DNA of 64,000 bases, from assembly GCA_900539035.1 (NCBI GenBank), contig UQAU01000002.1, positions 20,771 through 84,770 on the forward strand. Reading direction: 5' to 3'. Positions 41,425 through 58,817 of this stretch are shown here, one piece after another; the first letter of the stretch is position 1; each line of letters begins with the position of its first letter. Made by a program: the position numbers and the translations under genes. Below the pieces are notes generated by a model. That model saw only the letters and a program-made list of their open reading frames with translations, did not search any database and was not told the origin of the DNA. The stretch comes from an uncultured Collinsella sp. (lineage in GTDB: Bacteria; Actinomycetota; Coriobacteriia; Coriobacteriales; Coriobacteriaceae).

Positions 41425-41501
41425 TGCGGGGTGGAGCAGTCTGGTAGCTCGCCGGGCTCATAACCCGGAGGTCGTAGGTTCAAATCCTGCCCCCGCGACC
41501 A
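41425..41501 (+). tRNA. tRNA-Met (anticodon CAT) with initiator-like features (three G:C pairs closing the anticodon stem, non-Watson-Crick 1:72)
   Basis: Cloverleaf can be drawn by hand: acceptor TGCGGGG/CCCCGCG, D-arm GGAGCAGTCTGGTAGCTC, anticodon arm CCGGGCTCATAACCCGG, T-arm GGTTCAAATCC, 3' CCA. Confidence 0.85.
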
Positions 41502-41694
41502 AGACCTTTAGCAGCTCAGAGGCATTGTTCCTCTGGGCTGTTTTCTTTTATCTTGACAATGCAGCGAGGACTCCTGAGCGGAATATGAGCAGATTGCAAC
41601 GACCGCCAAGGCAAAACAGATGCCAATAAAACTAAAACCAGCTAAATAGAAGTGAAGAACCCGTAGAATCTTCCTCAGTGGAAAAGGCTATCAA

Positions 41695-44484
41695 GTGAGG
41701 GTCCGTATGCCAGGAAAGAAAGCCGATGCAGAAGCTTTTGCAAGCAGGTGGGCGAACAAGGGAAATGAGAACCAGGACACGCAACGGTTCTGGATCGACT
41801 TCTATCAGAATGTCCTGGGCGTGGAGGATGCGGTCTCGAGACTTGAGTTCGAGAAGCCCGTCTCCACCGATGCGAGCACGCACGATGGGTATATCGACGT
41901 CTTCATACCATCGGCCAAAACCCTTGTCGAGCAAAAGTCGCTGGGAATCGATCTCGCCAAGGAGGAGACGTGCCAGGGCCGCAAGGTGACGCCCGCGAAG
42001 CAGGGCAACGCCTACGCTCAGGGCATGCCCCTCTCCCAACAGCCTCGCTACATCATCGCTTGCAATTTTGCCGAGTTTTGGGTCTTCGACCGCGAGCGGG
42101 ACTCGCTATGCCGGGAGCCGCTTTTCAAGTTGCCGCTCGCCGAGCTCCCCAAGAACCTCGCTGCCATTCAGTTCCTCAAGGGCGGGGCGGAGGCCCCGGC
42201 CACGATCTCCCGCGCCGTTTCCGTCGAGGCCGGCAAGATCATGTCGAAACTCCATGACCAAGTCGCCGAGGCGTTCGATGACCCCGACACGCCCGAGAAT
42301 CACCATGCGCTCTCCGTGCTCATGACGCGCCTCATGTTCCTCATGTTCTGCGAGGACTCGGGACTCGTTGCCCCCAACGCCTTCCGCGACTACGTCTCGC
42401 ACTTCCAGGCGGGTGATCTCAGGCGAGGCCTCAAGGACCTTTTCGTTTGGCTCGACACCAAGGACGAGGACCGCGACAAGTACGCCGAGCCCTGGCTGAA
42501 GAAACTGCCCTACATGAACGGTGGCCTCTTCCGGGAGAAGACGGAGATTCCGCCCCTGTCCGAGAACTTCCGCCATACGCTCATCGTCGAGGGGTGCCAG
42601 GAGTTTGATTGGTCGGGCGTGAGCCCCACGGTCTTCGGCTCCATCTTCGAGGGCGCGCTGTCCCACGACCACCGCCGCGCAAACGGCCAGCACTTCACGA
42701 GCCCCGAAAACATCCACAAGGTCATAGACCCGCTCTTCCTCGACGGCCTCAAGGCTGAGTTCGAGGAGGCCCGTGTCAAGCCCGTCGCGGGCGGTGCGAG
42801 GACCCGTGCGCTCAAGGACCTGCATGAAAAGATCGGTAGCGTCTCTATCCTCGACCCGGCTGCCGGGTCAGGCAACTTCCTGACGGAGAGCTACCTGTGC
42901 CTGAGGCAGCTGGAGAACCGCATCCTCTTCGAGCTCCAGGGTGAGCAGACGTCATTCAGCTTTGAGGATTCCGGCGATCGCGACGTGCTGGTCAACCTAA
43001 AGAACTTCCATGGTATTGAGCTGGAGGACTTCGCTTGCTGCGTTGCCCGCACGGCTCTCTGGATCGCCGAGAAGCAGGCGGACGCTGACACCGCAAAAGT
43101 GACGCAGCGCGTCTACCAGGAACTTCCGCTCACGGACTATGAGGGCATCGTTAACGCGAATGCCCTTCGTATCGACTGGAATGACGTCGTATCAGCGGAT
43201 GAGGTCGATTATGTGCTCGGAAATCCTCCTTTTATAGGCAGTTCGCGCCTTGAAGACGCTCAAAAGGAAGATAGGAAGGCGATTTTTGGCAAATCCGCTG
43301 GTTTGCTCGACTATGTTGCATGCTGGCATAAGAAAGCGGCTGAATATATGGATGGGCATCGTGTTCGATGTGCATTCGTTTCAACTAACTCTATCTGTCA
43401 GGGACAGCAGGTTGAGCCCCTGTGGAAGCCCCTGTTCGACAATGGCGTTCATATCGATTTCGCCTATAAAACGTTCGTTTGGGATTCCCAAGCATCTGAT
43501 AAAGCGAATGTCCATGTTGTCATTGCCGGATTTTCTAAAAGTCCCGATATACAACCTCTACTGTTTAGCTCAACGGGTGCAACAAAAGCGGACAACATCA
43601 ACGGCTACCTCTCGAATGCTCCGGACGTTTTTGTCGAAAAGCGAAGGCAGCCCCTCTGCTCTGTTCCGAAGATGTCGCGAGGTGGCGGCGCTGGTGATTG
43701 GGGATTTTTAACCCTCGATGAGGCTGAGGCACATCGTTTACTGACTTCATATCCTGCTCTCGAACAGTACATTAGGCCATTTTCAATGGGATCTGAGTTT
43801 ATCAAGGGCATTAACAGGTATTGCTTGTGGTTTGCTGGACTATCGGGAGCCGAGCTATCCAAACTTCCCAAAGAAATAAGGGATCGGTTCGATGAAATCC
43901 GCAAACTAAGGTTGGCTTCTCCGCGTTCTGGCACGCAAAAGAGAGCCTGTGCCCCGTGGGAGTTCGATGAGGTTAAAGCGCCTGCCGATGGCGCATTCCT
44001 GGCCGTTCCACAGGTGTCTTCCGGACGGAGGAAATACATTCCGGTCGGATTCATAACCAACGGCACTATTCCTGGAAACAAGCTCTTTTTTGTCGAAGAG
44101 GCGGATTTGTATGATTTTGGAATCATCTCAAGTCAGTTTCACAACGCATGGATGAGGCAGGTTGCTGGACGCTTAAAGAGCGATTATCAATACTCGAACA
44201 CTATCGTCTATAACAATTTTGTCTGGCCTTCTCCATCTGCGAGTCAGAAGGATGAGATACGCCAGTGTGCTAGGGATGTGCTTGAGGCGAGAAACGCTCA
44301 ACGCGGGGCAACTCTTGCCGACATGTATAGCCCCGATAAAGCCCTCTTCTTCTCCGATCTCATGAAGGCTCATGCACGGCTCGACGCTGCTGTCGAATCT
44401 GCCTATGGCGTTGATTTTGGCGGAGATGAAGAGAGGGTTGTTTCGCATCTATTCAAGCTTTATGCCGAGAAGGTCGGTGAGTAG
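41695..44484 (+). CDS. MmeI-family type IIL (IIG) restriction-modification enzyme, single polypeptide with N-terminal nuclease, gamma-class N6-adenine MTase and TRD
   Basis: N-terminus FWIDFYQNVLGV...GYIDVFIPSAKTLVEQKSLGIDL matches the MmeI N-terminus from memory. Central NANALRIDWNDV...VLGNPPFIGS...RCAFVSTNSICQGQQVEPLWKPLF and C-terminal YQYSNTIVYNNFVWP are near-identical in pattern to MmeI. 929 aa, against 919 for MmeI. Confidence 0.85.
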   Translation: MRVRMPGKKADAEAFASRWANKGNENQDTQRFWIDFYQNVLGVEDAVSRLEFEKPVSTDASTHDGYIDVFIPSAKTLVEQKSLGIDLAKEETCQGRKVTPAKQGNAYAQGMPLSQQPRYIIACNFAEFWVFDRERDSLCREPLFKLPLAELPKNLAAIQFLKGGAEAPATISRAVSVEAGKIMSKLHDQVAEAFDDPDTPENHHALSVLMTRLMFLMFCEDSGLVAPNAFRDYVSHFQAGDLRRGLKDLFVWLDTKDEDRDKYAEPWLKKLPYMNGGLFREKTEIPPLSENFRHTLIVEGCQEFDWSGVSPTVFGSIFEGALSHDHRRANGQHFTSPENIHKVIDPLFLDGLKAEFEEARVKPVAGGARTRALKDLHEKIGSVSILDPAAGSGNFLTESYLCLRQLENRILFELQGEQTSFSFEDSGDRDVLVNLKNFHGIELEDFACCVARTALWIAEKQADADTAKVTQRVYQELPLTDYEGIVNANALRIDWNDVVSADEVDYVLGNPPFIGSSRLEDAQKEDRKAIFGKSAGLLDYVACWHKKAAEYMDGHRVRCAFVSTNSICQGQQVEPLWKPLFDNGVHIDFAYKTFVWDSQASDKANVHVVIAGFSKSPDIQPLLFSSTGATKADNINGYLSNAPDVFVEKRRQPLCSVPKMSRGGGAGDWGFLTLDEAEAHRLLTSYPALEQYIRPFSMGSEFIKGINRYCLWFAGLSGAELSKLPKEIRDRFDEIRKLRLASPRSGTQKRACAPWEFDEVKAPADGAFLAVPQVSSGRRKYIPVGFITNGTIPGNKLFFVEEADLYDFGIISSQFHNAWMRQVAGRLKSDYQYSNTIVYNNFVWPSPSASQKDEIRQCARDVLEARNAQRGATLADMYSPDKALFFSDLMKAHARLDAAVESAYGVDFGGDEERVVSHLFKLYAEKVGE

Positions 44485-44485
44485 C

Positions 44486-45400
44486 GTGAAGGGGAACGTC
44501 ATAAAGCCGAAGGGGGAGACGATACCATCCGAACCCGATTCCGTGAAGGGGAGCATTGGAGATCTAAGGGCCGAGGCCGATCGACAGGAGGAGGAAGCCC
44601 AAAGATATGCCATCGCCTTCCTCAAGAAGGTTATGAGGCTGAAAGGCGTGGCAATCGAGCGCGACCATTTCCTCCGCTCAGAGTTTCGTAAGCGGGGCGT
44701 TGCGGACGAGCAGGTAGAGCTCGCGATTTCAACGAGCCCAGCCGCCGCCGGGATGGATTCTGACCTTGTCGACTCCATCGCGAGGGACGTCATTGATTTC
44801 GAGACGAAGAAATCGACCGTCCTTTCGTTCTCCGCGGGATTGCCCGGCGGGCTCGCGATGCTCGGAACGATCCCGGCGGACGTGACGCAGTACTATGTCC
44901 ACGCCTTTCGAATCATGCAGAAGCTGGCGTATCTCTACGGCTGGCAGTCATTTATCGACGATTGCGACGAGATGGACGATGAGACCTTGGCGGCCTTCGC
45001 CCTTCTCCTGGCCGTGATGGCCGGCGTGAGCGGTGCCAACTCCGCCTTGACGGCGTTTTCCAAAACGGTTCAGGCCAATGTGGCCAAGAAGGTCGCCAAC
45101 AAGGCGCTTATGCAGACAAGTTACTACCCGATTATCAAAAAGGTCCTTGCCGGGATCGGCGTCAAGATCACCAAAAGCAGTTTCGGCGACGTGGTGAGCA
45201 AAGTCGTTCCGGTCGTCGGCGGGTTCATCTCGGGAGGCCTCACGTTCGTCAGCCTCAAGGGCGGGTCGAGGAGACTTGCAGGGGAGCTCAGGTCATTGCC
45301 GCAGGCGACAGGTCCCTTGACCGCAGCGGCGGTTGATTCTTTTACTGATTTTGCCGAAATGAAGGGGATGACGAGCGATGACGATGCCCAAATGGCATGA
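44486..45400 (+). CDS. EcsC-family protein (hypothetical), translationally coupled to the RM gene
   Basis: GTG start 2 nt after the RM stop. Motif SAGLPGGLAMLGTIPADVTQYYVHAFRIMQKLAYLYGW resembles the EcsC core (GGMSGTGG...PA....V.....GSAYGYD) as recalled from B. subtilis EcsC. Confidence 0.45.
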   Translation: MKGNVIKPKGETIPSEPDSVKGSIGDLRAEADRQEEEAQRYAIAFLKKVMRLKGVAIERDHFLRSEFRKRGVADEQVELAISTSPAAAGMDSDLVDSIARDVIDFETKKSTVLSFSAGLPGGLAMLGTIPADVTQYYVHAFRIMQKLAYLYGWQSFIDDCDEMDDETLAAFALLLAVMAGVSGANSALTAFSKTVQANVAKKVANKALMQTSYYPIIKKVLAGIGVKITKSSFGDVVSKVVPVVGGFISGGLTFVSLKGGSRRLAGELRSLPQATGPLTAAAVDSFTDFAEMKGMTSDDDAQMA

Positions 45401-46316
45401 GACCATGCGGCCCATCCTTGAAGCGCTGGCGCATGTCGATGGATATCTGGCCGGCACCGACCTCCAGGATGCCGTGGCGATCGAATTCGACATGACCGAT
45501 GACGAACGGGCCGAGCGTCTTAAGAGCGGCCAGTCGAGACTCTACAACCGCGTGTACTGGGGTATCACCGATTTGGAGAAGGCTAAGCTTCTGGAATACG
45601 GCGAGAAGAAGGGAACCTACCGTATCACCGATGCCGGCAGGACGTACCTCTCTGATTATCCCGGACCCATTACAGCCAAGGGTCTCTATGAGAACTGCAC
45701 GGCATTCAAGAAGTGGAAAGACGGCTATCAGGCCGCAAGCAAGGCCAAAAACGCTTCAGAGCCCGAGGGCGTTTCGACGCTGGAGGACCAGGAGTCCCCT
45801 CAGGAGGCGATGGAGTCTGCCTACGGCGAGATTCGCGACGCGCTCGCCGACGACCTCATTTCGATCATCATGGGAAAAGATCCGTATTTCTTCGAGCACC
45901 TGGTCGGAAAGCTGCTCGTGGCGATGGGTTACGGCGAGAGCCTGGACTCCCGTGCCGACGTCACCAAAAAGAGTGGTGACGAGGGGATAGACGGCGTCGT
46001 CCGTGAGGACCGACTCGGATTCGGAACCATCTGCTACCAGGCTAAGCGGTGGGATCCGCAAAGGACGGTCGGACGGCCGGAGGTTCAGGCATTCGTCGGG
46101 GCGCTTTCCGGAAAGGGCGTATCGAAGGGCCTTTTCATCACCACGGCTCGCTTCTCCAAGGATGCCCGCAAATATGCTGAGGGCCTCCTGGGGCAGACGG
46201 TCGTGCTCGTCGACGGCCCCGCGCTCGCCGGCCTCATGATCGACTACGGCGTCGGCGTGAGCACGAGACAGGTCTACGAGATCAAGGCCGTTGACACCGA
46301 TTTCTTCGACGAATAG
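45378..46316 (+). CDS. mrr: Mrr-family type IV (modification-dependent) restriction endonuclease
   Basis: Mrr_N winged helix (MPKWHETMRPILEAL...) plus Mrr_cat PD-(D/E)xK domain (...DEGIDGVV...ICYQAKRW...). Confidence 0.8.
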   Translation: MTMPKWHETMRPILEALAHVDGYLAGTDLQDAVAIEFDMTDDERAERLKSGQSRLYNRVYWGITDLEKAKLLEYGEKKGTYRITDAGRTYLSDYPGPITAKGLYENCTAFKKWKDGYQAASKAKNASEPEGVSTLEDQESPQEAMESAYGEIRDALADDLISIIMGKDPYFFEHLVGKLLVAMGYGESLDSRADVTKKSGDEGIDGVVREDRLGFGTICYQAKRWDPQRTVGRPEVQAFVGALSGKGVSKGLFITTARFSKDARKYAEGLLGQTVVLVDGPALAGLMIDYGVGVSTRQVYEIKAVDTDFFDE

Positions 46317-46336
46317 CGCGTGTCTGCAACGCGCCG

Positions 46337-47086
46337 CTACCGCGCGCCCTTCCGCCCGTTGCATTTCGAGCAGAGCACCTGCAGGTTGGATGGAACGGTC
46401 TTGCCGCCCTTCGCGACCGGCACGATATGGTCGACGTGCAGGCCCACGCCGTCCGGCATGTATTTCCCGCATATCTGGCAGGTGTAGTTGTCCCGGCGGG
46501 CGATCTGCTCGCGCAGCTGCTTCGTCATCAGCCTTCGCTGGTTCCTGGCGTGATAGTCCCTGAGCGTCGCCTCGTCGTTGATGGCGGCGAGGCGGATGCG
46601 GCGCTCGACGATCCACTCCCAGTTCACGTCAAGCTCGGAATCATCCATCGACACCTTGTAGGACGTCTTCACGTAGTTGGCCTGCTTGTACCTCGTCTGG
46701 TCGCGGCAGGTGATGAACCTAAAGGCCCTGTCATCGTCGACCGCCTCGGCGTACTGACGCTCGCGCCGGCTGCGGAGCCGGCAGGTTTTCAGATACTCTT
46801 CTTGCTCGTGCTTCCAGTTCTGGATGTATGCCCTATGGGCGACGATGGCGTCCCAACCGGCCGGGTCCATCAGGTGACGGTCGATGTAGTCCTCGATCCT
46901 CACGTTGCGCCTGCCAGACACATCGAAGCGGGCCACGTAGTAGGGATACCTAAAGGGGCTCGCCAGAATCCTGCGAACCAGGACCGCGATTGCACATACC
47001 AGGGCTATGGCCAGCACGCCGAGAACGAAATGGGGCGTCAGGTCGACTATATAGTGGTACCCGTCTATCTCATAGAGCTGAGTCAT
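46337..47086 (-). CDS. Membrane-anchored HNH endonuclease
   Basis: N-terminal TM (FVLGVLAIALVCAIAVLV) and C-terminal HNH motif CQICGKYMPDGVGLHVDHIVPVAKGGKTVPSNLQVLCSKCN. Start at MTQLYEID is preceded by GGAAGGAAG. Confidence 0.7.
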   Translation of the reverse strand: MTQLYEIDGYHYIVDLTPHFVLGVLAIALVCAIAVLVRRILASPFRYPYYVARFDVSGRRNVRIEDYIDRHLMDPAGWDAIVAHRAYIQNWKHEQEEYLKTCRLRSRRERQYAEAVDDDRAFRFITCRDQTRYKQANYVKTSYKVSMDDSELDVNWEWIVERRIRLAAINDEATLRDYHARNQRRLMTKQLREQIARRDNYTCQICGKYMPDGVGLHVDHIVPVAKGGKTVPSNLQVLCSKCNGRKGAR

Positions 47087-47246
47087 GGCATTCTTCCTTC
47101 CCCAAGGATGGCAAAATGATACCAAGACGCGGGTCTTCCGGATCGCGGGCGCTTTCCACGCGGTACACCCATGCCCCTCCGTCCGGACACCGCACACCGA
47201 ACCCCCACACCACGTTCGCTTTACAATCAAGAACATTCGTTCGACA

Positions 47247-47606
47247 ATGAAGCCCGTGAGATACAAACGGATGTTCGGGGGTACGCGCATGATCATGAAA
47301 AAGCACTCGCTTGCGGGAACCTGCGGCATACCCACCGATGCACAGCGCATCTACATCCCCGTGGACGCCAACGGCGCGGACGACCCCGACCACGGCCCGT
47401 CCGATCCCGTCACCATCCACTGGCCGGACGGCCGCAGTTGGAAGGTTGAGAGCATCTACGCCCGCCAGGAGTTCGGCCGCGCCATCTTCGGTAACCTCTG
47501 TGTGCGTTACGACGTCTGCATCGCGAGGCAGCGCAAAACGGTCTGGTGGGAGCACGGCGACTGGTTCGTCGAGCGCGGTGGCGGCATGGCGGTGACGCCC
47601 GAGTGA
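47247..47606 (+). CDS. Hypothetical small protein, paralog A (WPDGR-motif family)
   Basis: Shares ...ADG....PV.I.WPDGR.W.V..I... with the next ORF. Start uncertain (47247, 47289 or 47295). The ORF-track start overlaps the HNH gene on the opposite strand. Confidence 0.35.
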   Translation: MKPVRYKRMFGGTRMIMKKHSLAGTCGIPTDAQRIYIPVDANGADDPDHGPSDPVTIHWPDGRSWKVESIYARQEFGRAIFGNLCVRYDVCIARQRKTVWWEHGDWFVERGGGMAVTPE

Positions 47607-48004
47607 TGGGCCACACAAAGGACTTCGGCGGCGGCATCACCGTTCGCGCCAACGGCGACAAGCCCGGCAGACGCGTCCATAAGCAGTACGTAGACGTCTA
47701 CGCCCGCACTAACGCCGACGGAACGACGGTGCCTGTCCGCGTCTGCTGGCCGGACGGCCGCGGCTTCACGATCGACCAAATCATTCGAATAGACCCCTTC
47801 GGCGCGGTCATCCACGACGCGCAGACGGCGGTCTACACGGTGCGCTTCGGCGGCTGGACCACTCAGCTCATGCTGGAGCACTACCACAGGGAGGACCCCA
47901 TTCACGGGGCAGATGACCGCCTGCGATGGTGGGTCTGGGCGTTCGAGAACACCCGCTCGAAGAACGACGTTTCCGCACCGCCTGCCGACACGCGCGTCCG
48001 GTGA
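47606..48004 (+). CDS. Hypothetical small protein, paralog B (WPDGR-motif family)
   Basis: The ATG shares a base with the paralog A stop (TGATG). PVRVCWPDGRGFTIDQII... aligns to paralog A. Confidence 0.4.
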   Translation: MGHTKDFGGGITVRANGDKPGRRVHKQYVDVYARTNADGTTVPVRVCWPDGRGFTIDQIIRIDPFGAVIHDAQTAVYTVRFGGWTTQLMLEHYHREDPIHGADDRLRWWVWAFENTRSKNDVSAPPADTRVR

Positions 48005-48047
48005 ACGCGGGTTGGGTCGTCATGCGGAACGCAGAGGGTGACGTCGG

Positions 48048-48278
48048 CTAGAGCCAAGCTCCGGTCCACTCGCTCCGGTTCCTCGTCGCCGCGAGGAGCG
48101 CACCGCATGCCGCGAGCAGTTCGTAGTCCGCGATCCTGATCCCGACCGACATGGCCTCGGCGAGGACTTCAATCCCTCTGCCATAATCCTCGATCTCGGA
48201 GAATACCCCGATACCGTCCATGAGCCGCAGGGCGGCTTCGCTCGGCCCGTCCCCCGTCGTGACGTGACGTTCTTCCAT
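48048..48278 (-). CDS. Hypothetical small protein (76 aa), weak
   Basis: ORF only. No motif. Confidence 0.2.
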   Translation of the reverse strand: MEERHVTTGDGPSEAALRLMDGIGVFSEIEDYGRGIEVLAEAMSVGIRIADYELLAACGALLAATRNRSEWTGAWL

Positions 48279-48592
48279 GCCGAAACAATCCTCTCTATGC
48301 TAGAAAGGCGATGATAGCAGGTGCTGTCCGGGCCAGCGTAAACCGCGTTTTACGTTTTACGGCATCCGCTGACGGCGGCCACGGCTCCGTGGCCGGGTGA
48401 TGCCTCCGCTGCGCCCTGTAAAGGCCGCTCCATGAGGCCCCGCACAAACCTCCGCTCCGCTCCGGTTGGTGGAGGCCGTCATGGAGGACCTTGACAGGCC
48501 TTCGCTCCGGCATGGCTTTGCAGGGAGCAAAGCCGACGACGACGCGCGGCGTCGCCATTCGGCTTTGCCCGCAGGGGCGAGATGTTAGGGCC

Positions 48593-48919
48593 ATGCGCCC
48601 GGAGACGGAGGAAGACATGCAGCAGCTGATGACCGAGGAGATGGCCGGGAGGCTCCCGAGGCTCTACGAGCAGGACGGTGCCGGCGACCCCGTCGCGTAC
48701 GTCCACTATTTCTCGTGCTTGAGCGGGTGGGACTGGTGGCTCACCGAGTACGACCCCGCCACGGGCGAGGCATTCGGGCTCGTGCGCGGGTTCGAGACGG
48801 AGTGGGGCTATTTCAGCGTGCGGGAGATGGAGCGCCTCAACCGTGAGAAGGGGTTCGAGGCCATCGAGCGCGACGAGCATTTCGAGCCCGCGCCGGCGAG
48901 TAGGTTCGAGGGGAGATAG
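48593..48919 (+). CDS. DUF2958-like small protein, common on conjugative and mobilizable elements
   Basis: Motif YVHYFSCLSGWDWWLTEYDPATGEAFGLVRGFETEWGYFSVREMERL recalled as the DUF2958 signature (W.WY.TE.D......FG.V.G.E.E.GYFSL.EL). Confidence 0.45.
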   Translation: MRPETEEDMQQLMTEEMAGRLPRLYEQDGAGDPVAYVHYFSCLSGWDWWLTEYDPATGEAFGLVRGFETEWGYFSVREMERLNREKGFEAIERDEHFEPAPASRFEGR

Positions 48920-48923
48920 CGCG

Positions 48924-49526
48924 ATGGTCACGGTCGATTTCGATTTCATGGGCGAGGCGGTCCGCCTCGCCCTCGTGGCCGATGAGTACGTGGGCGGCGG
49001 CCTGGCCGTCCTCCTCCTCGACGCCACGGACCCGCGTTCCGAGGGCTACATGGCCGGGTGGGGCGTGCTCACGGCGAACGTGCCGTCGGCGGCCGAGTGG
49101 TGCCGCGGGCACGGCAACATCGCCATCGACGCCGCGGTGCCCGCGGCGCTCCTCGAGGCGCTCGAGGCCGCCGGCATGCTCCGCATGGCCGCCCGCTCGG
49201 CGGCGTCCGGGATGGCCCGCTACCCGCTTGCCACGGTCGTCGGGCACGCCCTCGCCGACATGGGCGGCCTGCCCGAGACCTTGGAGGAGGCCCTCGGCTC
49301 GACGGTCGTCGTCGAGTACGAGTCGGGCGGCGACGGCGGCGCGTTCGAGGTGGGGACCGCACCGGCGGGCTCGGCCGAGCTCGAGCGCCTCGTCGCCGCC
49401 GCGAGGTCCGAGGCCGACGCGCTGGCAGCCGCCGGCGGATGGGCGGCCGTCCGGGTCGGTTTCGGGGACGCCGAGACCATCGACTGCGAGGCGGGCCGAA
49501 CGGTCTACGCGACCGGGGCGGAATAG
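48924..49526 (+). CDS. Hypothetical acidic protein (possibly DUF4313-like) co-transcribed with the DUF2958 gene
   Basis: GGGAGA RBS and a 5-nt gap after the previous stop. No confident family. Confidence 0.4.
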   Translation: MVTVDFDFMGEAVRLALVADEYVGGGLAVLLLDATDPRSEGYMAGWGVLTANVPSAAEWCRGHGNIAIDAAVPAALLEALEAAGMLRMAARSAASGMARYPLATVVGHALADMGGLPETLEEALGSTVVVEYESGGDGGAFEVGTAPAGSAELERLVAAARSEADALAAAGGWAAVRVGFGDAETIDCEAGRTVYATGAE

Positions 49527-50229
49527 CCGCGGCCGCCACCCGCACGGGCATGCCGGCGACGGCGTGCCCGTGCGGCGTTTCCCGGGGATGGACCGCGCCA
49601 TCCCCGGACCCCTGCGCGCCAAAGGGCCTAGGCCCCTTGGGACCCGTGTCCGTGTGACGGGCATGACGGGGATGACGGCACGGCGGACACATGCCTTCGG
49701 GCGTCACCGTGTCCCGCTGGATCGGCCTTTCGGCCGATGCGTCCCCGCCGGGATGCGGGGACGCCCGCGCCGCGTTCCGCGCCGCTCTCGCTGCGGCTCC
49801 CTGGCAACGCTCCCCAGGGTCGCGTTTCGTGCGCCTCCGCTCACGCCGGCCCCGGACGGTGAACGGCTGCATTCGATGGCTCCCAGAGGTCGCCATCATT
49901 CCGCCGTGGTCACCGGCCGGGGCCTCTCGCCCCGGGTCGCCGTGCGTACGGGGGATGCTCCCCAGGGTCGCGTCCCCCTGCGCGCGGCTCGGCCGGGGCT
50001 CACCTCGACGCAGCCTCGTCGGACGGGGCCGACATGCGGTTGCCGGTCGATGCAAGATGTGTATCCGTGCGTACACGGCGTCTTTCGGCCGCCGCGCACA
50101 CACGGATATCTTGCCCTGCGGGGCGCGTCCCCCGAGCTTGCGGGACGCTTGTTGCGTCCCGGTCCCGGGAGACGGGAAGAGGGGCCGCGGCCCCTCTTCG
50201 AGATGTGCGCGCGGCGCGTCCTATACGTA

Positions 50230-51204
50230 TCACATCTCGTTTTCCCGGCCGTCGTCCATCGCCCGCTCCATCATGCGGTAGGTCGCCATGCCGATCCCGA
50301 GCGCGTGCTGTATGCCGCCCCTCGTGAAGCCGCGACCGAGCTTTCGCCCGCTGATCGCCGCTTTCCTGAGGGCGCGCCCGTGCGCGTCCCTTCGATCGTA
50401 TGTCGGTCGGTACTCGAAGACCAGGTCCCTTTCCTTGAGATTCCGGTCACGGCTGAGGCGCATATGAACACCCCTCCGCTCAAGCGACTCGTTGAGGGCG
50501 CGCATTTTGTTCGATGCGTCTGATGAGACGATCTCGCGGACGCTTTCGCGAACGACCCGGCGAACGTGGTCCTGGTCGGTTTCGAAGCCCGGGTCGGCCT
50601 TCGAGCCGATCTCGCGGGCCCGCTGCTCGCCCCTCGACTCCTGCCGGGCGTGGACGCGGCTGTTGCGCGTCCCGCGCTCAAGCTGGGAGAGCCCCCAGCG
50701 CCCGTCCATCTCGCGCATCCTCGCCGCGTGGAGGGTCCTCTGGCGGGACGCCCTGCCGTCGTTGAGGCGCTTTCCGGTCGAGAGGTCAGTCCGGTTGATG
50801 GCGATATGCACGGCGTAACGGTCGGTCCCGTCCCTCGAGTGCTCTAGGTGGAGTGCCCACGCCGCCTCCTGGTTCGGGTAGTAGCGCTCGACCCACTCGC
50901 GTGCGAACTCCATGCAGTCGCCCTCGGACATCCTTCCCCCGTTGACGTCGCACTCGTCGGGGTTGAACGCGATGATCTGGTGATAGCAGTAGGTGCATTT
51001 CGAGCCCTTTCGCCCGGGCTCGTTGTGCCCGTAGGCCGCGCGCGTGCGCTCCATCTCGCGGGACCAGTTCGCCGGGTCGCCGAGGTTCCGGGAGTCGAAG
51101 TCGAGCACGTCGTGTTTGCTGTTCGTGTTGTCCAGATAACCCGATAAGCTCTTCATATGCTGCGTGCCTGTGATCGCCACCTGCTTGATTGCGGTCATAT
51201 CCAT
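50230..51204 (-). CDS. Relaxase/mobilization nuclease (MobA/VirD2-like)
   Basis: ...CYHQIIAFNPDE...HLEHSRDGTDRYAVHIAINRTD (3-His motif), upstream Tyr-bearing region. Start at MDMTAIKQ. The ORF-track N-terminal 98 codons (Arg/Pro-rich) were discarded. Confidence 0.8.
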   Translation of the reverse strand: MDMTAIKQVAITGTQHMKSLSGYLDNTNSKHDVLDFDSRNLGDPANWSREMERTRAAYGHNEPGRKGSKCTYCYHQIIAFNPDECDVNGGRMSEGDCMEFAREWVERYYPNQEAAWALHLEHSRDGTDRYAVHIAINRTDLSTGKRLNDGRASRQRTLHAARMREMDGRWGLSQLERGTRNSRVHARQESRGEQRAREIGSKADPGFETDQDHVRRVVRESVREIVSSDASNKMRALNESLERRGVHMRLSRDRNLKERDLVFEYRPTYDRRDAHGRALRKAAISGRKLGRGFTRGGIQHALGIGMATYRMMERAMDDGRENEM

Positions 51205-51211
51205 CCACTTC

Positions 51212-53170
51212 CTATTCGTCCCAGGCCGCCCACTCGTCCATGAACGCCGCGTTGTCCTCGTCGGCCTTGGTGGGATCGTTCGGGGCGGTCTCTTCTTCAC
51301 CGGATGCGTCGCCATCGGCGTCGAACTCGGGGCACCACGGGGTGGGGGCTTCATATGCGTCGCCTTCTGCGGCGGCTCTCGCGCGGGCGTAGTACGCGGC
51401 CCGTTTCTCGCGCTCGGCCTCCTCGTCCCCGAGCCCGAAGAACGGGCCGGCGGGCGTCCTGTTGGCGTAGTCGAGCGGGAATTCGAAGACGCCCTCACGT
51501 CCGGGCTTCGAGTTCTCCCCGCCCTTGATCGCGATGAGGCCGTCGCGGATGGGGATGCGGTTCTGCCACTCCCATTCGTTTATCAGGGGAACGCCCGCCT
51601 CGTTGTAGCTCGTGCCAGATGAGGAGCGCCCTGCGCCTTTCTGGCTAGACGTTCCCATCGAGCGCACGGTCCGCTTTCCCGCGAGTGCCGTGAAGAACTT
51701 GAAGTCCTCTGGCTCGGAGAGAGACAGAGCGACCTTGATGCCGATGGAGCCGATCAGCTTGTCGCGACCGGCCCCGCCGTCGCCTGGGTCATTGTAGGCA
51801 TTCAATTCTTTGAGATTTTGAACGAAGATTTGCTCGCGTATTCCCATCGAACGTCCGAGCGTCGCGATGGCCGGCAGACACGCGACCTTGACGTTGAGGT
51901 TGCCGATCTCGTCGAGCACGAGCGCTGTCTCGTGTGGCATGCGGCCCCCGTTCCCCTTGCACGCCCGCTGCGCCACCTGCCACCACTGGTTCAGGAAGCA
52001 GGTGTAGACGACCCCGTACGGGTCTCCCTCGTCGAGCATCTCGATGTAGACCGCCGTCTTCCTCTCGATGAGGTCGCGAATGGAGACGCTGCTCTCGGAA
52101 GTCACGGCGCGGAGCGCTCCGTCCGAGAAGATGCTCAGTGCCTCCTTGAGGGTCGAGACGACGTTCTTGCCGGCCGTCGTCGCGCCGCCGTCACCGAGGA
52201 GGTCGGACGCCGGCGAGAACGCCGGGTGCGACGGCCCGAGCTCGCGGATGTAGTCCTTAAGCGGGGCCGAGGGGTCCTTCGGGTCGTCGCCGGCGGTCCC
52301 GCGCTCCACGAGCGCGGCGACGCTCGCGAGGTTCTTCTGCCTGCGGGGGATGTCGGCCGTGCAGACGACGAGGACGCAGGCGGCGAGCATGTTGCGCGCT
52401 GCCTTGGGGAAATACGTGTTCTTCTCCCCGCCGATTGGGATGAGGTCGACGGCAACCTGCCGGGCCGTCCTCACGGCCCCGTCAATGTCGCCCGCCTCGA
52501 CGGCGTCGGCGACAAGTCCGATGGGGTTGTACGAGCTGGCACCGGGATAGCCGGTCAGGTCGAGGACGATGGTCTCGTAGCCGAGCTTCCTCGCCTTGTC
52601 GGCGGTGAGCTCAAGGATCTCGGGCTTTCCGGTGGAGACGACGTTCCAACCGGCTGCCAGGAACATATGCATATCTTCCAGGACTTGGAATTGTGACTTA
52701 CCAGACCCCGTTTTTCCAATGCTGATCGCGTGCGGAACGGACGAGTCGAACCAGTATCCGCCCTTGGTCGCGCCGAGCACGAAACCCGCTCTGGCCGGCG
52801 CGCCGGACCCGTCCCAGAAATCGTTGCGGCGGTTGAGTTCCGCTGTGCCCCGGACGACGTGGGCGTCGCCGTAGATACCTTCGTCGACGTTCCGGTTGCG
52901 TTCGGCGTCCTTTGCGACCGTATAGCCGAGGAGAACGAGAAACAGGAGACAGAACGCTGCGAACATGAACGGAATGTGACCGAGCCATGCCCCGGAAAGC
53001 CAGAAGACCGACCACATGTCGAAACCGATGGCGTCGAGCCAGGCGACCCAATCGATGGGGAGCGACGAAGCGGCGCAAGCGATCACGGGTGCTATCAGGG
53101 GATAACACGCGACGGTAAGGACGGTGGCGAACGAAGCCGAGAGGACAGCGTTGAACTTAAGATTGCGCAC
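51212..53170 (-). CDS. Type IV coupling protein (TraG/VirD4/TraD family)
   Basis: N-terminal TMs, Walker A GKTGSGKS, TraG-like central and C-terminal regions. Confidence 0.85.
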   Translation of the reverse strand: MRNLKFNAVLSASFATVLTVACYPLIAPVIACAASSLPIDWVAWLDAIGFDMWSVFWLSGAWLGHIPFMFAAFCLLFLVLLGYTVAKDAERNRNVDEGIYGDAHVVRGTAELNRRNDFWDGSGAPARAGFVLGATKGGYWFDSSVPHAISIGKTGSGKSQFQVLEDMHMFLAAGWNVVSTGKPEILELTADKARKLGYETIVLDLTGYPGASSYNPIGLVADAVEAGDIDGAVRTARQVAVDLIPIGGEKNTYFPKAARNMLAACVLVVCTADIPRRQKNLASVAALVERGTAGDDPKDPSAPLKDYIRELGPSHPAFSPASDLLGDGGATTAGKNVVSTLKEALSIFSDGALRAVTSESSVSIRDLIERKTAVYIEMLDEGDPYGVVYTCFLNQWWQVAQRACKGNGGRMPHETALVLDEIGNLNVKVACLPAIATLGRSMGIREQIFVQNLKELNAYNDPGDGGAGRDKLIGSIGIKVALSLSEPEDFKFFTALAGKRTVRSMGTSSQKGAGRSSSGTSYNEAGVPLINEWEWQNRIPIRDGLIAIKGGENSKPGREGVFEFPLDYANRTPAGPFFGLGDEEAEREKRAAYYARARAAAEGDAYEAPTPWCPEFDADGDASGEEETAPNDPTKADEDNAAFMDEWAAWDE

Positions 53171-53181
53171 AGGATTTCCTC

Positions 53182-53529
53182 CTAGACGTTCCGGGCATCA
53201 GTCAGGAAGTCCGAGACGGCGTCGGCTGCGTTTCCGACCTTTATGAGTGCGGCATCGAGGAACGGGGCGATCCGACCGGGGTCGTGGGTGATATGGACCT
53301 CGCGCGTCAACTGGTTAAGGTTCGACGCAGCAAGTCTGAAATCTCGGTACAGGAGCTTCAGCGTCTCGGGGTCGGTGGCGATTATGGGTCGGTCGCCGTC
53401 GACGAGCGAGCGTCGGCGAAGGTACTCGCTCATGCTCAGGCCAGCCGCATCGGCACGCCGCGCGATGGCGGCGCGCTCCTGCGAGGTGACTCTGACGTAG
53501 ATGCGGCCCGACCTCTGCGGGCTACTCAT
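53182..53529 (-). CDS. MobC-like relaxosome accessory protein (ribbon-helix-helix)
   Basis: RIYVRVTSQERAAIARRADAAGLSMSEYLRRR. Start moved to MSSPQRSG. Confidence 0.6.
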   Translation of the reverse strand: MSSPQRSGRIYVRVTSQERAAIARRADAAGLSMSEYLRRRSLVDGDRPIIATDPETLKLLYRDFRLAASNLNQLTREVHITHDPGRIAPFLDAALIKVGNAADAVSDFLTDARNV

Positions 53530-53968
53530 TGCGCCCCGCCGCGCCAGTGGGAACGAACACATGGGACACGCCGACTCGGCGGTCGCCTCCCATGCTGTCG
53601 CAGAGCATGAAGGCGAACGCAAACGGGGTGTCGGCAAAGGGTGTGCGGGAACGGGCTTCGAACATGAGGGCCATGAGATCGAGATAGGCGCTTTCAAGGC
53701 GATCGTAGTCCCCGCGCGTCACGGGGATCCCGCGATAGGTGACGATGGGGAGGTCGGGCTCGTCGCAATAGTAGGCGAAGAGTGTGCCGGGGATCTCCTC
53801 CTGGACGATCGCATCGATCGAGGGGATATCGGGGTAGGCCGACGGTGCGAAAGGCCAGGCGAAGAAGGCATGCTTTCGCTTTTCGGCTGCTTCGGGGTTG
53901 AGCTCGATGGTGAACTTCGGGGCGATCTCGAATCGACCGTCCGACAGTTTCAGGGATTTGAATTCCAT
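53522..53968 (-). CDS. Hypothetical protein (148 aa) in the mobilization operon
   Basis: Overlaps the mobC start by 8 nt. Protein-like composition. Confidence 0.4.
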   Translation of the reverse strand: MEFKSLKLSDGRFEIAPKFTIELNPEAAEKRKHAFFAWPFAPSAYPDIPSIDAIVQEEIPGTLFAYYCDEPDLPIVTYRGIPVTRGDYDRLESAYLDLMALMFEARSRTPFADTPFAFAFMLCDSMGGDRRVGVSHVFVPTGAAGRNE

Positions 53969-54023
53969 AACAGGTCCTTTCGATGATGCGGCGGGGCCGG
54001 GTGTGGCTGGCCCCGCCGGTCGA

Positions 54024-55010: not shown

Positions 55011-55011
55011 C

Positions 55012-55221
55012 CTATACCGCCTCCGCGCGGATGACGCGACAGCGGCCGCGATAGTCGGTGACGATCTCGACGCCGAGGGCTGTGCAGAGCGCGTCGATGC
55101 GGTCCGCCTGTTCGATAGCGAATCCGAGAATGTCCTCATCGGTAGGATTGTGTGGGAGACCGTGGGCCTCCAGCGTGCGCGCTACGCGCTCGGCGTGCGC
55201 AAAGTAGGCGGAATAGTCCAT
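55012..55221 (-). CDS. Hypothetical small protein (69 aa)
   Basis: Tightly packed upstream of the AAA_25 gene. Confidence 0.3.
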   Translation of the reverse strand: MDYSAYFAHAERVARTLEAHGLPHNPTDEDILGFAIEQADRIDALCTALGVEIVTDYRGRCRVIRAEAV

Positions 55222-55335
55222 TTGTGCTCCTTGTAGATATGGGCCGCATGGAGCATGTAATATGGACCATGCGGTTTATGTGCCGCGGACGGGTGCGTCT
55301 TCTTGGCGGGAGGGCACCCGTTTTTCTTTTTCAGG

Positions 55336-55533
55336 CTAGCCAACGCCGGCCATCTCCTTTCGGTCGTCGGGCTCTTTTAGCCCGAGCTCGCGGTAGAGCG
55401 CGGAGCGGGCGATGTACCACGTCTTTCCGAGCTTGCGAAACGGAAGCTCACCGGCCTTGGCGAGCTTTTGAGCCTTGGAATAACTCACATTCATAATCTC
55501 GCTTGCTTCAGCGAGAGACAGGAGCTTGTCCAT
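55336..55533 (-). CDS. xis: Excisionase / HTH_17-family DNA-binding protein
   Basis: LSLAEASEIMNVSYSKAQKLAKAGELPFRKLGKTWYIARSAL. Confidence 0.55.
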   Translation of the reverse strand: MDKLLSLAEASEIMNVSYSKAQKLAKAGELPFRKLGKTWYIARSALYRELGLKEPDDRKEMAGVG

Positions 55534-55572
55534 ATATACCTCCTCTCTTATCGTTAATTCCATTGTACACAC

Positions 55573-57139: not shown

Positions 57140-58504
57140 ATGGCGACGGTGCCCCGCAACAAGGGTAGTTACGCCCCTAGGACGGCTGGTAGCTCTTGGC
57201 AGGTAAAGTACCCGCTCGGCTGGAATGAGCGCAAGAAGCGTTACGACGAATATCGTGAAGAGGTCGCTTCGGAGGCCGAGGCCATCGCGCTGATCAAAGC
57301 CATCAACGACTACGTTTATCACGGGGGCCTTCCGCAAGACGTACCCGAGTGGAGACGCAGGGCAAAAGGACATTCCGAGGGTGACGTCCTAACGCTCGAT
57401 GGATTCGCCATGTCCTATATCGCGATGCGGGAGAGGCGGCGAAAAGTCCAGGAGAGGACCATCGAAAGCAACCGCGAGGCCTGGGCAAGACTCCGGCCGT
57501 ACCTCGGCGATTTGCCTCTGAGGCGGGTGACGCCCTTCGTCATCGATGAGGCATATGCCTGTATGGGGAGTCCGGGGGACGATAACCTTGCCGGCAGGGT
57601 CTACTCCGGAACGACGATTGAGAAAAGTCATGCGTTTCTGCGGCAGCTGCTCAAGGACGCCGTCGAGCGGGGTTACATCGACAAGAACCCCTGCGATTCG
57701 ATTGACGCTCCCAAAAGGGATACCAAGGAGAAGGTAGCACTCACTTTATTTCAAGCCCAGGCGCTATTTAACTACATAACGAGTCGCCCCCTGGAGGCAC
57801 ATGCCATTGGCGTGCTGCTTGCGCTGAACTGCGGGCTTAGGCTTTCCGAGATGCTCGCGTTGACCTGGCAAGATTATGAAGGCGGCGTGCTGTCTGTAAC
57901 TAAAGCGCTGAACAAAGAGAAGCAGACGTACAAGTCGACGAAGAACGAAGACAACAGGAGGGTCCCTGTCCCGATGCCGCTCATATCGGTTCTCGATGAG
58001 TGGCAGAAGACCCAAAGGCGCATTTACTCGGACAACCTCGGCCTTCGGTGGAGCGAAGACGCACCCATTGTGAACAGCAGAAACGCAAAGCACATCCTTC
58101 AGCGGTCTTTCACGCGTTGGTTCGATTCGGCAAGGCTCGAGTATCCGATACCCGACGACTTCGAGTTTCATGGGTTCAGGCATACATACGTGACCTTGTT
58201 GAGTCGCGACTGTGGAGTGGACCGGCGAACCGCGAAGAGCATGAGCGGTCACAAGAACGACCAGGCCTTCGATATCTACACTCATACAAACGATGAGTGG
58301 CAGCGAAGGGCGGCTAACGAGCTCGGTGATATCTTGCAGCCTAATGACGGCGCTCGAAAATGCTACAACTGCGCTTACTGGGGCGTATCTCCTCTAGACG
58401 CCGATCGTGGTGCCTGCTGGAACAACCCCGCCGGGCTAATCGAAGCAAAAGCGGGCGACTCGTGTGGCAAGGGCCTGTTCATCGCCAAAACCGCGAAAGC
58501 GTGA
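57140..58504 (+). CDS. int: Tyrosine-type site-specific integrase with a Cys-rich C-terminal tail
   Basis: Catalytic region ...LRLSE...HGFRHTYVTLL...DIYTH (R-H-R-Y) plus a SAM-like N-domain. Tail CYNCAYWGVSPLDADRGACWNNPAGLIEAKAGDSCGKG. Confidence 0.9.
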   Translation: MATVPRNKGSYAPRTAGSSWQVKYPLGWNERKKRYDEYREEVASEAEAIALIKAINDYVYHGGLPQDVPEWRRRAKGHSEGDVLTLDGFAMSYIAMRERRRKVQERTIESNREAWARLRPYLGDLPLRRVTPFVIDEAYACMGSPGDDNLAGRVYSGTTIEKSHAFLRQLLKDAVERGYIDKNPCDSIDAPKRDTKEKVALTLFQAQALFNYITSRPLEAHAIGVLLALNCGLRLSEMLALTWQDYEGGVLSVTKALNKEKQTYKSTKNEDNRRVPVPMPLISVLDEWQKTQRRIYSDNLGLRWSEDAPIVNSRNAKHILQRSFTRWFDSARLEYPIPDDFEFHGFRHTYVTLLSRDCGVDRRTAKSMSGHKNDQAFDIYTHTNDEWQRRAANELGDILQPNDGARKCYNCAYWGVSPLDADRGACWNNPAGLIEAKAGDSCGKGLFIAKTAKA

Positions 58505-58740: not shown

Positions 58741-58762
58741 ATAGAGAAAGAGCCGCCCCGCC

Positions 58763-58810
58763 CTCATAACCCGGAGGTCGTAGGTTCAAATCCTGCCCCC
58801 GCGACCAAGA
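58763..58810 (+). repeat. attR: 48-bp copy of the tRNA-Met 3' end
   Basis: Exact match to 41457-41504. The preceding sequence is not a tRNA 5' half. Confidence 0.85.
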
Positions 58811-58817
58811 ACTTGCA

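What the first reader, a model, noticed from the sequence alone, without database searches (positions are those of the whole stretch)
41695..46316. MmeI-family type IIL RM enzyme translationally coupled to an EcsC-family protein and Mrr
Three plus-strand genes have overlapping or 1-2 nt junctions: RM stop / GTG of the EcsC-like gene, and the EcsC-like end overlapping the mrr ATG. MmeI-family enzymes are normally stand-alone, and EcsC-family proteins have no established role in defense. An EcsC-like protein embedded between a modification-generating RM and a modification-dependent Mrr is unusual. It may be an accessory or regulatory component, for example preventing Mrr from attacking MmeI-type hemi-methylation.
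Basis: partly seen in the sequence, partly recalled or inferred. Interest (0 to 1): 0.7.

Follow-up and report, generated by a model that had tools for sequence, protein, structure and literature searches.

The report
Three stacked defence genes on mobile element
A gut Collinsella mobile element carries a tight operon of an MmeI-type restriction-modification enzyme, a distantly EcsC-like protein already listed as an untested phage-defence candidate (PADLOC PDC-S30), and an Mrr nuclease, and natural variants suggest these are three separable defence modules, not one machine.

Summary
Three + strand genes are packed with a 1-nt gap (or 23-nt overlap) and a 17-23-nt overlap. They are a complete MmeI-family type IIL enzyme, a 304-aa all-helical protein (B) and an Mrr type IV nuclease. 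They are the first cargo genes of a 17.3-kb integrative mobilisable element at tRNA-Met in Collinsella.

B gives no Pfam EcsC hit. Its relatives score 13-28 bits, below the 30.4-bit cut-off, so it is at most a distant EcsC relative. It matches PADLOC PDC-S30 at 1e-87. PDC-S30 is an untested single-gene defence candidate, proposed because such genes sit inside RM/BREX/DISARM systems.

The operon recurs with the same geometry in 31 related loci, but its alleles reassort and MmeI varies mainly in its target recognition domain. Natural variants exist as MmeI-Mrr without B (an exact cassette deletion), B-Mrr without MmeI, and MmeI-B without Mrr. Distant B relatives lack MmeI and Mrr and sit beside type I or III RM, Azaca, AbiH, toxin-antitoxin pairs, or nothing recognisable.

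B is most likely an independent defence module stacked with two others, not a specific MmeI/Mrr regulator. Its mechanism is unknown; a membrane-acting effector is my guess. Interest is moderate.

The parts
41425..41501 (+). tRNA-Met (CAT), the integration target of the element
   Evidence: ARAGORN; Rfam tRNA, 63 bits
41452..41508 (.). attL: 57-nt direct repeat covering the 3' part of the tRNA
   Evidence: Direct repeat D1, 95% identical to 58758-58814, spacing 17306 nt
41510..41542 (+). Terminator-like hairpin after the tRNA. It is followed by about 150 nt of non-coding leader that should hold the operon's promoter, which I did not identify.
   Evidence: No sigma-70-like consensus was found on the + strand.
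41695..44484 (+). MmeI-family type IIL (IIG) restriction-modification enzyme, a single chain. The likely start is ATG 41707 (925 aa).
   Evidence: Pfam MmeI_N, MmeI_hel, MmeI_Mtase, MmeI_TRD and MmeI_C. PADLOC REase_MTase_IIG, E=0. PDB 5HR4 MmeI, E=8e-163, with the D..ExK and NPPF motifs aligned.
44486..45400 (+). Gene B: a 304-aa all-helical protein (312 aa if it starts at ATG 44462). It belongs to the PADLOC PDC-S30 family and is distantly EcsC-like. The cassette that is exactly absent in L034 corresponds to 44487-45377.
   Evidence: PDC-S30 1e-87. No Pfam EcsC hit for this protein, while relatives score 13-28 bits. AF2 model with pLDDT 81.7 and 11 helices. dN/dS of 0.08-0.17 in the informative comparisons. 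Junction comparison.
45378..46316 (+). Mrr-type (type IV, modification-dependent) restriction endonuclease
   Evidence: Pfam Mrr_N 1e-20 and Mrr_cat 2e-33. PADLOC mREase_IV 9e-68. The GIDG...QAK motif is visible in the translation.
46337..47350 (-). HNH endonuclease gene, convergent with mrr. It is part of the element but not of the operon.
   Evidence: Pfam HNH 3e-14. The same gene follows mrr in L001, L002 and L086-L090.
50230..51207 (-). MobA/VirD2-type relaxase of the element
   Evidence: Pfam Relaxase 7e-12
51212..53170 (-). Type IV coupling protein (TraG/VirD4-like)
   Evidence: Pfam T4SS-DNA_transf 6e-25 and TraG-D_C
57140..58504 (+). Tyrosine integrase, the last gene before attR
   Evidence: Pfam Phage_integrase 1e-19
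58758..58814 (.). attR: second copy of the 57-nt tRNA-Met 3' repeat

Best explanation
**What it is.** The region is the cargo end of a 17.3-kb integrative mobilisable element inserted in tRNA-Met of a Collinsella genome. Its first three genes form one operon that stacks three separable defence modules.
1. An MmeI-family type IIL enzyme. It methylates and cuts by its own recognition sequence, and it diversifies by swapping its target recognition domain.
2. Gene B, a single-gene module of the PADLOC PDC-S30 candidate family and a distant EcsC relative.
3. An Mrr type IV nuclease, which should cut modified foreign DNA.

**What is shown.**
- The gene identities and the operon geometry.
- The mobile-element context.
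- Purifying selection on B.
- The modularity of the three genes.
- The recurrent but optional placement of B relatives beside unrelated defence systems.

**What is inferred.**
- The three genes are co-transcribed from the leader after the tRNA and translationally coupled.
- B acts on its own and is not a subunit or regulator of MmeI or Mrr.
- B probably acts at the membrane as an abortive-infection-type effector. This rests only on its helical bundle with three conserved glycine-rich hydrophobic hairpins, and it is the weakest step.
For: **Identities.**

**Mobile element.** 57-nt att repeats. Integrase, relaxase, coupling protein and an AAA_25 protein. The same element occurs in L001, L002 and L086-L090, and L089 shows the integrase directly upstream of MmeI, which would be a circular or tandem junction.

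**Conservation.** 31 complete trios with the same geometry.

**Modularity.**
- MmeI is 94-99% identical across relatives in residues 1-290 but only 36-52% in the target recognition domain.
- Synonymous divergence is discordant between neighbours. In L019, B has dS 0.33 and Mrr 0.024. In L008, B has dS 0.024 and Mrr 1.16.
- 7 allele combinations occur among the 31 trios.
- L034 reads '...GGTGAGTAGCG|ATGACGATGCCC'. This is MmeI joined to Mrr with the B cassette exactly missing. The shared AGCG at both cassette ends is my reading.
- L027 lost MmeI, leaving B fused to the first MmeI codons.
- In L031 and L032, Mrr is replaced by a DUF4268 gene and a SLFN_AlbA_2/HATPase_c_4 gene.

**B as an autonomous, defence-island gene.**
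- PDC-S30 match at 1e-87. The family was defined by its embedding in defence systems.
- dN/dS of 0.08-0.17 in the informative comparisons.
- Relatives sit next to type I RM in Pauljensenia, Lactococcus plasmid pS19 and an Enterococcus contig.
- Others sit next to type III RM, Azaca ZacC, AbiH, ParE or HipA toxin-antitoxin pairs, and MazG-like plus SLFN helicase genes.

**Membrane guess.**
- Three hydrophobic Gly-rich segments at residues 111-130, 163-192 and 234-259. They coincide with helix-turn-helix hairpins in the AF2 model.
- G118, G121, G122, G180, G245 and G250 are nearly invariant.
- NCBI labels the Rhodococcus homologue 'membrane protein'.
Against: - No experiment shows that any PDC-S30 or EcsC-like protein defends against phage.
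- The tight coupling is kept in 31 loci. That is also what an obligate complex would look like.
- L034, the only MmeI-Mrr pair without B, has a 60% B paralogue next door, so B-like function is not proven dispensable.
- Several distant relatives have no recognisable defence neighbour.
- Hydrophobicity is marginal for true transmembrane helices: only one segment exceeds 1.6.
- My context sample covers about 20 lineages. It was hand-picked and is not a statistical survey.
Confidence: 0.55

Rival explanations
1. **RM guard.** B is a backup effector tied to the neighbouring restriction enzyme, as PrrC is to EcoprrI. The RM enzyme keeps B silent. When a phage anti-restriction protein disables the RM enzyme, B is released and kills or arrests the cell.
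For: - B relatives lie immediately next to RM systems of three different types in at least five lineages.
- In this clade B is translationally coupled to the RM gene.
- B stays with MmeI when Mrr is swapped out in L031 and L032.
- The family was found by its embedding in RM, BREX or DISARM systems.
Against: - Most sampled relatives have no RM gene within about 6 kb.
- L027 keeps B expressed from the MmeI start after MmeI was deleted, so B is tolerated without that RM partner.
- One protein fold would need to read out type I, IIL and III enzymes.
- There is no interaction evidence.
Confidence: 0.15
2. **The first reader's idea.** B is an accessory or regulatory component of an MmeI-Mrr system. 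For example, it stops Mrr from cutting host DNA that carries MmeI-type one-strand methylation.
For: - B sits exactly between the two genes, with coupled junctions, in 31 loci.
- The one locus lacking B in that position still has a B paralogue 370 bp away.
Against: - MmeI and Mrr are joined directly and intact in L034.
- At least three MmeI target recognition domain types pair with the same Mrr allele, so Mrr tolerates several methylation patterns.
- B alleles reassort freely with MmeI and Mrr alleles.
- B persists without MmeI (L027) and without Mrr (L031, L032).
- Outside this clade, no B relative I sampled has MmeI or Mrr nearby.
Confidence: 0.1
3. **Not a defence gene.** B is a membrane or stress-related accessory protein of mobile elements, for example one that aids maintenance, exclusion or envelope fitness. 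It hitch-hikes in cargo slots that also collect defence genes.
For: - Relatives occur on small lactic-acid-bacteria plasmids, directly followed by a small site-specific integrase gene.
- One sits on a Gordonia plasmid beside Tn7-like genes and an integrase.
- Others lie in loci with no defence neighbour.
- The EcsC namesake belongs to a transporter operon, not a defence system. This last point rests on my own knowledge of the B. subtilis ecsABC operon.
Against: - Adjacency to RM, Azaca, AbiH and toxin-antitoxin modules recurs in unrelated lineages.
- B is placed inside a defence operon, not beside the element's transfer or replication genes.
- No transporter partner genes are nearby.
Confidence: 0.15

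Closest known systems
PADLOC PDC-S30 (single-gene 'phage defence candidate'; Payne et al., bioRxiv 10.1101/2024.01.29.577857)
   Same: B matches the PDC-S30 model at E=1e-87 over profile positions 7-246 of 268. Like the founding members, it is nested among restriction genes.
   Different: The candidates were defined from type I RM, BREX and DISARM systems. Here the gene sits between a type IIL enzyme and a type IV nuclease. No PDC-S30 member has been tested, as far as the searchable literature shows.
Pfam EcsC (PF12787) / Bacillus subtilis EcsC of the ecsABC operon
   Same: Weak but consistent similarity to profile positions of about 70-225 of 240 in relatives. 29 of 77 relatives hit at E<=0.01. 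Both are small helical proteins with hydrophobic segments.
   Different: The window protein itself gives no hit. Relatives score 13-28 bits, below the 30.4-bit cut-off. There are no ecsA/ecsB-type ABC transporter genes beside it.
MmeI (PDB 5HR4), the type IIL restriction-modification enzyme
   Same: Full-length homology (E=8e-163) and all five MmeI domains. The nuclease D..ExK and methyltransferase NPPF motifs are kept. Sister alleles differ mainly in the target recognition domain, as in the known specificity-swapping behaviour of this family.
   Different: The recognition sequence is unknown. Here the enzyme is the first gene of a three-gene operon, not a solitary gene.
E. coli K-12 immigration control region (mcrBC-hsdSMR-mrr), cited from my own knowledge
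   Same: An Mrr type IV nuclease is clustered with a methylating RM system, and unrelated genes are interspersed.
   Different: There the genes are separate transcription units on the chromosome. Here they are translationally coupled cargo of a mobilisable element, and the RM enzyme is type IIL.
PrrC anticodon nuclease embedded in the EcoprrI type I RM operon, cited from my own knowledge
   Same: A non-RM gene is nested within a restriction operon. This is the model for the 'guard' rival.
   Different: PrrC is an ABC-ATPase-like nuclease that is strictly tied to its RM partner. B has no nuclease or ATPase signature, and most of its relatives lack an RM neighbour.

Membership tests
MmeI family (type IIL/IIG RM) | Domain order: N-terminal nuclease, helical spacer, gamma-class N6A methyltransferase, target recognition domain, C-terminal domain | tested here: met
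   Five Pfam MmeI domains in order, with E-values from 1e-13 to 2.5e-84. PADLOC REase_MTase_IIG, E=0.
MmeI family (type IIL/IIG RM) | Catalytic motifs D-x(n)-E-x-K (nuclease) and NPPF (methyltransferase) | tested here: met
   The alignment to 5HR4 shows IDVF..VEQK opposite VDLF..IEMK, and LGNPPFIG opposite LGNPPFVG.
MmeI family (type IIL/IIG RM) | Cuts about 20/18 nt from the site and protects the host by methylating one strand only | not testable with these tools
   Needs enzyme assays or methylome data.
Mrr (type IV restriction) | Mrr_N winged-helix domain plus Mrr_cat PD-(D/E)xK domain | tested here: met
   Pfam Mrr_N 1e-20 and Mrr_cat 2e-33. PADLOC mREase_IV 9e-68 over the full length.
Mrr (type IV restriction) | Cleavage depends on DNA modification | not testable with these tools
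   Biochemical property.
Pfam EcsC (PF12787) | Score at or above the gathering threshold (30.4 bits) | tested here: not met
   No hit for the window protein even at E<=10. The eight relatives scored individually give 13.3-28 bits. 29 of 77 relatives hit at E<=0.01, with a best E-value of 5.9e-9; the bit score of that best member was not shown.
Pfam EcsC (PF12787) | Encoded with ecsA/ecsB ABC transporter genes, as in the founding B. subtilis operon | tested here: not met
   The neighbours are MmeI and Mrr. No ABC transporter is in the element.
PADLOC PDC-S30 | Match to the PDC-S30 profile | tested here: met
   E=1e-87, 291.8 bits, residues 36-275 on profile positions 7-246 of 268. There is a weaker match to PDC-S29 at 4e-15.
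PADLOC PDC-S30 | Found nested in or next to known defence systems | tested here: met
   Here B lies between MmeI and Mrr. Relatives lie beside type I RM, type III RM, Azaca and AbiH.
PADLOC PDC-S30 | Anti-phage activity | not testable with these tools
   No published test found.
Integrative mobilisable element | Flanking direct repeats at a tRNA, an integrase, and a relaxase plus coupling protein | tested here: met
   57-nt repeats 17.3 kb apart. Integrase, relaxase and T4CP.
PrrC-like RM guard | Held inactive by the RM enzyme and activated by anti-restriction proteins | not testable with these tools
   Only the nesting in an RM operon can be seen. L027 shows that B is tolerated without MmeI.

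The most novel reading that the evidence does not exclude
PDC-S30/EcsC-like proteins are a widespread class of helical, membrane-inserting abortive-infection effectors. They are repeatedly recruited next to restriction systems of types I, IIL and III as a second line of defence that fires when restriction is evaded or inhibited. The Collinsella MmeI-B-Mrr operon would then be a compact three-layer immune cassette spread by a mobilisable element.
Probability: 0.12. Interest if true: 0.7.

Novelty: new member of a known kind. Interest (0 to 1): 0.4.

Why it matters
- **A test case for PDC-S30.** If B does defend, this locus is a clean natural test bed for an untested candidate family. The family has about 1,400 clusters at 50% identity. 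Nature has already made the deletion series: the trio, MmeI-Mrr, B-Mrr and MmeI-B.
- **Defence spread in the gut.** The locus shows how a small mobilisable element carries layered defence (type II, a candidate gene, type IV) through gut Collinsella. MmeI specificity is shuffled while its partners stay constant.
- **If B has no defence role.** The locus is then an ordinary defence-island arrangement.

Tried and rejected
- **Pfam, NCBIfam and PHROGs scans of B.** There was no usable hit for the window protein.
- **Literature.** I looked for a description of PDC-S30 in the Payne et al. text and supplements. It is not in the held files, and the table that lists the PDC assignments is truncated. 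I found no paper testing an EcsC-like protein in defence. There are only two passing mentions: a putative jukA partner and a type III-E locus gene.
- **B paralogue upstream of the tRNA in this window.** I considered this and rejected it. The upstream gene is type III pantothenate kinase.
- **Terminator-like hairpin at 45317-45336 inside B.** I considered whether it separates B from mrr. The scan found fewer such sites than shuffled sequence gives, so I treat it as chance.
- **Direct profile-profile test against bona fide EcsC.** I could not run it because I had no EcsC sequences.
- **Similarity between MmeI (42198-42246) and 60313-60361.** This is a chance match inside a flavin oxidoreductase gene.


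Full report
**1. What is in the sequence**

Three + strand ORFs fill 41695-46316.
- **Gene A** runs from GTG 41695 (or ATG 41707, the start used by gene callers in near-identical contigs; 925 aa) to TAG at 44482-44484.
- **Gene B** can start at GTG 44486, one base after that stop (304 aa). It can also start at ATG 44462, 23 nt inside gene A (312 aa), which is the length of the closest database relatives. It ends at TGA 45398-45400.
- **Gene C** starts at ATG 45378 or 45384, inside the end of B, and ends at 46316. An AAGGGG motif lies 10 nt before 45378, read from the sequence.

A tRNA-Met (CAT) lies at 41425-41501, just upstream. G+C falls to 0.51-0.58 across the three genes, against 0.61-0.70 in the five 1-kb windows upstream and 0.62-0.76 in the four downstream.

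**2. Identities of the flanking genes**

- **Gene A** carries all five Pfam MmeI domains in order. It matches the PADLOC type IIG model at E=0. It aligns end to end with the solved MmeI structure 5HR4 (E=8e-163), with the nuclease D..ExK and methyltransferase NPPF motifs conserved.
- **Gene C** has Mrr_N and Mrr_cat and matches the PADLOC type IV model over its full length.

**3. Identity of the middle gene B**

- The window protein has no Pfam EcsC hit, even with a permissive threshold, and no NCBIfam hit.
- It matches PADLOC PDC-S30 at 1e-87 and PDC-S29 at 4e-15.
- PDC systems are single- or multi-gene 'phage defence candidates'. They were proposed because such genes are found nested within BREX, DISARM or type I RM systems. 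They were added to PADLOC without experimental tests.
- The link to EcsC is real but remote. 13 of 21 and 29 of 77 family members hit PF12787. Eight relatives scored individually give only 13-28 bits against a 30.4-bit gathering score.
- NCBI names some plasmid homologues 'EcsC family protein'. These are 35-37% identical to B.
- The family is of moderate size: 1,387 clusters at 50% identity at E<=0.001.

**4. Structure of B**

- An AlphaFold2 model built on 77 sequences is confident (pLDDT 81.7, pTM 0.79) and consists of 11 helices.
- Three moderately hydrophobic, glycine-rich stretches lie at residues 111-130, 163-192 and 234-259. They coincide with helix-turn-helix hairpins in the model. Their glycines are nearly invariant, and R59, P120, D132 and Q145 are invariant.
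- The PDB holds no informative structural or sequence relative.
- The idea that B works at the membrane is therefore an inference from composition only.

**5. Genomic setting**

- A 57-nt direct repeat (41452-41508 and 58758-58814, 95% identical) brackets 17.3 kb.
- That stretch encodes an HNH protein, a relaxase, a type IV coupling protein, an AAA_25 protein and, last, a tyrosine integrase.
- Pantothenate kinase lies on one flank and a flavin oxidoreductase on the other. Both are chromosomal genes.
- The three genes are thus the attL-proximal cargo of an integrative mobilisable element.
- The host is Collinsella. Near-identical copies occur in many Collinsella species genomes and in Olsenella urininfantis, and in gut metagenome contigs.
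- In one contig (L089) the integrase lies directly upstream of MmeI, as expected for a circular or tandem form.

**6. Is the trio one system or three?**

The order and junction geometry are kept in 31 complete loci. Four observations point to separable modules.

- **(a) MmeI varies by domain.** MmeI alleles are 94-99% identical over residues 1-290 but only 36-52% identical in the target recognition domain. This is the family's usual way of changing specificity. B and Mrr do not follow these changes.
- **(b) Neighbouring genes have different histories.** In L019, B has dS 0.33 while Mrr has 0.024. In L008, B has 0.024 while Mrr has 1.16. Seven allele combinations occur among the 31 trios.
- **(c) Natural deletion and replacement variants exist for each pair.**
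  - L034 has intact MmeI and Mrr joined as '...GGTGAGTAGCG|ATGACGATGCCC'. This is exactly the window sequence with 44487-45377 removed. AGCG is present at both cassette ends in the window sequence, which I read.
  - L027 has lost MmeI. B is fused to the first MmeI codons directly after the tRNA-Met leader, and Mrr is intact.
  - L031 and L032 keep MmeI and the B core. Mrr is replaced by a DUF4268 gene and a SLFN_AlbA_2/HATPase_c_4 gene.
- **(d) MmeI and Mrr linkage is confined to this clade.** Outside it, no B relative I sampled has MmeI or Mrr nearby.

B itself is under purifying selection, with dN/dS of 0.08-0.17 in the informative comparisons.

The caveat is that L034 and L028 carry a second, 60%-identical B paralogue about 370 bp upstream of MmeI. 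L034 is therefore not a B-free genome.

**7. Where B relatives live**

I looked at about 20 lineages by hand.

| Neighbour or setting | Where seen |
|---|---|
| Type I RM | Pauljensenia (hsdM-S-R, then B 86 nt downstream) |
| Type I RM | Lactococcus plasmid pS19 (hsdRMS, one hypothetical gene, then B) |
| Type I RM | Enterococcus contig (B, then hsdR-hsdM) |
| Type III RM | Collinsella aerofaciens DSM 13712 and two IMG/VR contigs |
| Azaca ZacC | Citricoccus |
| AbiH | Gut metagenome contigs (relative P0046, 60% identical to B) |
| ParE or HipA toxin-antitoxin pairs | Several |
| MazG-like and SLFN-helicase genes | One lineage |
| Non-specific endonuclease | Planococcus plasmid |
| Small plasmids, next to a small integrase | Lactic acid bacteria |
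| Tn7-like genes and an integrase | Gordonia plasmid |
| Nothing recognisable | Two lineages |

- The Collinsella 59% paralogue sits beside tRNA-Thr (CGT) at the edge of a slot whose content varies between genomes. Only 3 of 44 such loci have an RM system there that my query panel could detect.
- Phage records hardly ever carry the family.
- The pattern is that of an autonomous gene of defence islands and mobile elements. It is often but not necessarily next to restriction genes, and those genes are of several types.

**8. Interpretation**

- **Best reading (confidence 0.55).** The operon stacks three independent defence layers on a mobilisable element, and B is a PDC-S30 candidate acting on its own. 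I commit to a membrane-acting, abortive-infection-type role as the most likely mechanism, but that step is weakly supported.
- **Rival: PrrC-like guard of restriction enzymes (0.15).**
- **Rival: a non-defence mobile-element or membrane function (0.15).**

**9. Novelty and score**

- PADLOC would already annotate this locus as RM type IIG, PDC-S30 and RM type IV.
- New here are the type IIL/type IV embedding context, the exact cassette boundaries, and the natural deletion series.
- I rate it a new member of a known, still untested, kind.
- Interest is 0.4. It is a useful experimental entry point into an uncharacterised candidate family, but it is not a surprising architecture.

Noticed in passing
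window 41452-58814: A complete 17.3-kb integrative mobilisable element at tRNA-Met. It has 57-nt att repeats and genes for HNH, relaxase, coupling protein, AAA_25, a zf-FCS protein and integrase. No mating-pore genes were seen among the annotated genes.
   Followed up: yes
L089 2363-7023: The element's integrase lies directly upstream of MmeI with no tRNA between them. This suggests an excised circular form or a tandem array captured in a metagenome assembly.
   Followed up: partly
L036-L079 (e.g. L040 7929-8978); L028 3804-4853; L034 4896-5945: A second B paralogue (349 aa, 58-61% identical) sits next to tRNA-Thr (CGT) in many Collinsella genomes. It lies at the edge of a variable slot that holds a type III RM, MmeI-Mrr, the whole trio, an ABC transporter or other genes.
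   Followed up: partly
L083 4849-5937 and 6088-7089: Two B-family genes in tandem in an Actinomyces MAG.
   Followed up: no
L101 5953-7467; L102 2454-3899; L103 5953-8368: On Lactococcus, Lactiplantibacillus and Gordonia plasmids, the EcsC-like gene is followed on the same strand by a site-specific integrase gene. In the two lactic-acid-bacteria plasmids the integrase is small (about 196 aa) and starts about 20 nt downstream.
   Followed up: no
L101 5953-6855; P0073; P0068: Some relatives carry a C-terminal SHOCT domain. Several show a weak RecX_HTH2-like three-helix match in the region before the conserved core (window B residues of about 55-82).
   Followed up: no
L031 3945-6687; L032 8960-11609: In two Collinsella MAGs, Mrr and the mobility genes are gone. 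MmeI and B are followed by a DUF4268 gene and a SLFN_AlbA_2/HATPase_c_4 gene, and then by the chromosomal flavin oxidoreductase. This looks like a decayed island with swapped cargo.
   Followed up: partly
L011; L014: The cassette is 94-99% identical in a MAG labelled Treponemataceae and in Olsenella urininfantis. The first is probably a binning error. The second suggests recent transfer between genera.
   Followed up: no
window 49001-50000: G+C reaches 0.76 in a 1-kb stretch inside the element, against about 0.62-0.67 around it.
   Followed up: no
window 45317-45336: A terminator-like hairpin with a T-run lies inside the 3' end of B, about 40 nt before the mrr start. The scan found no more such sites than shuffled sequence gives, so it is probably chance.
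   Followed up: no
L086 1286-3771: In some genomes, two PP2C phosphatase-like genes sit between pantothenate kinase and MmeI. L027 has one of them upstream of the tRNA-Met.
   Followed up: no
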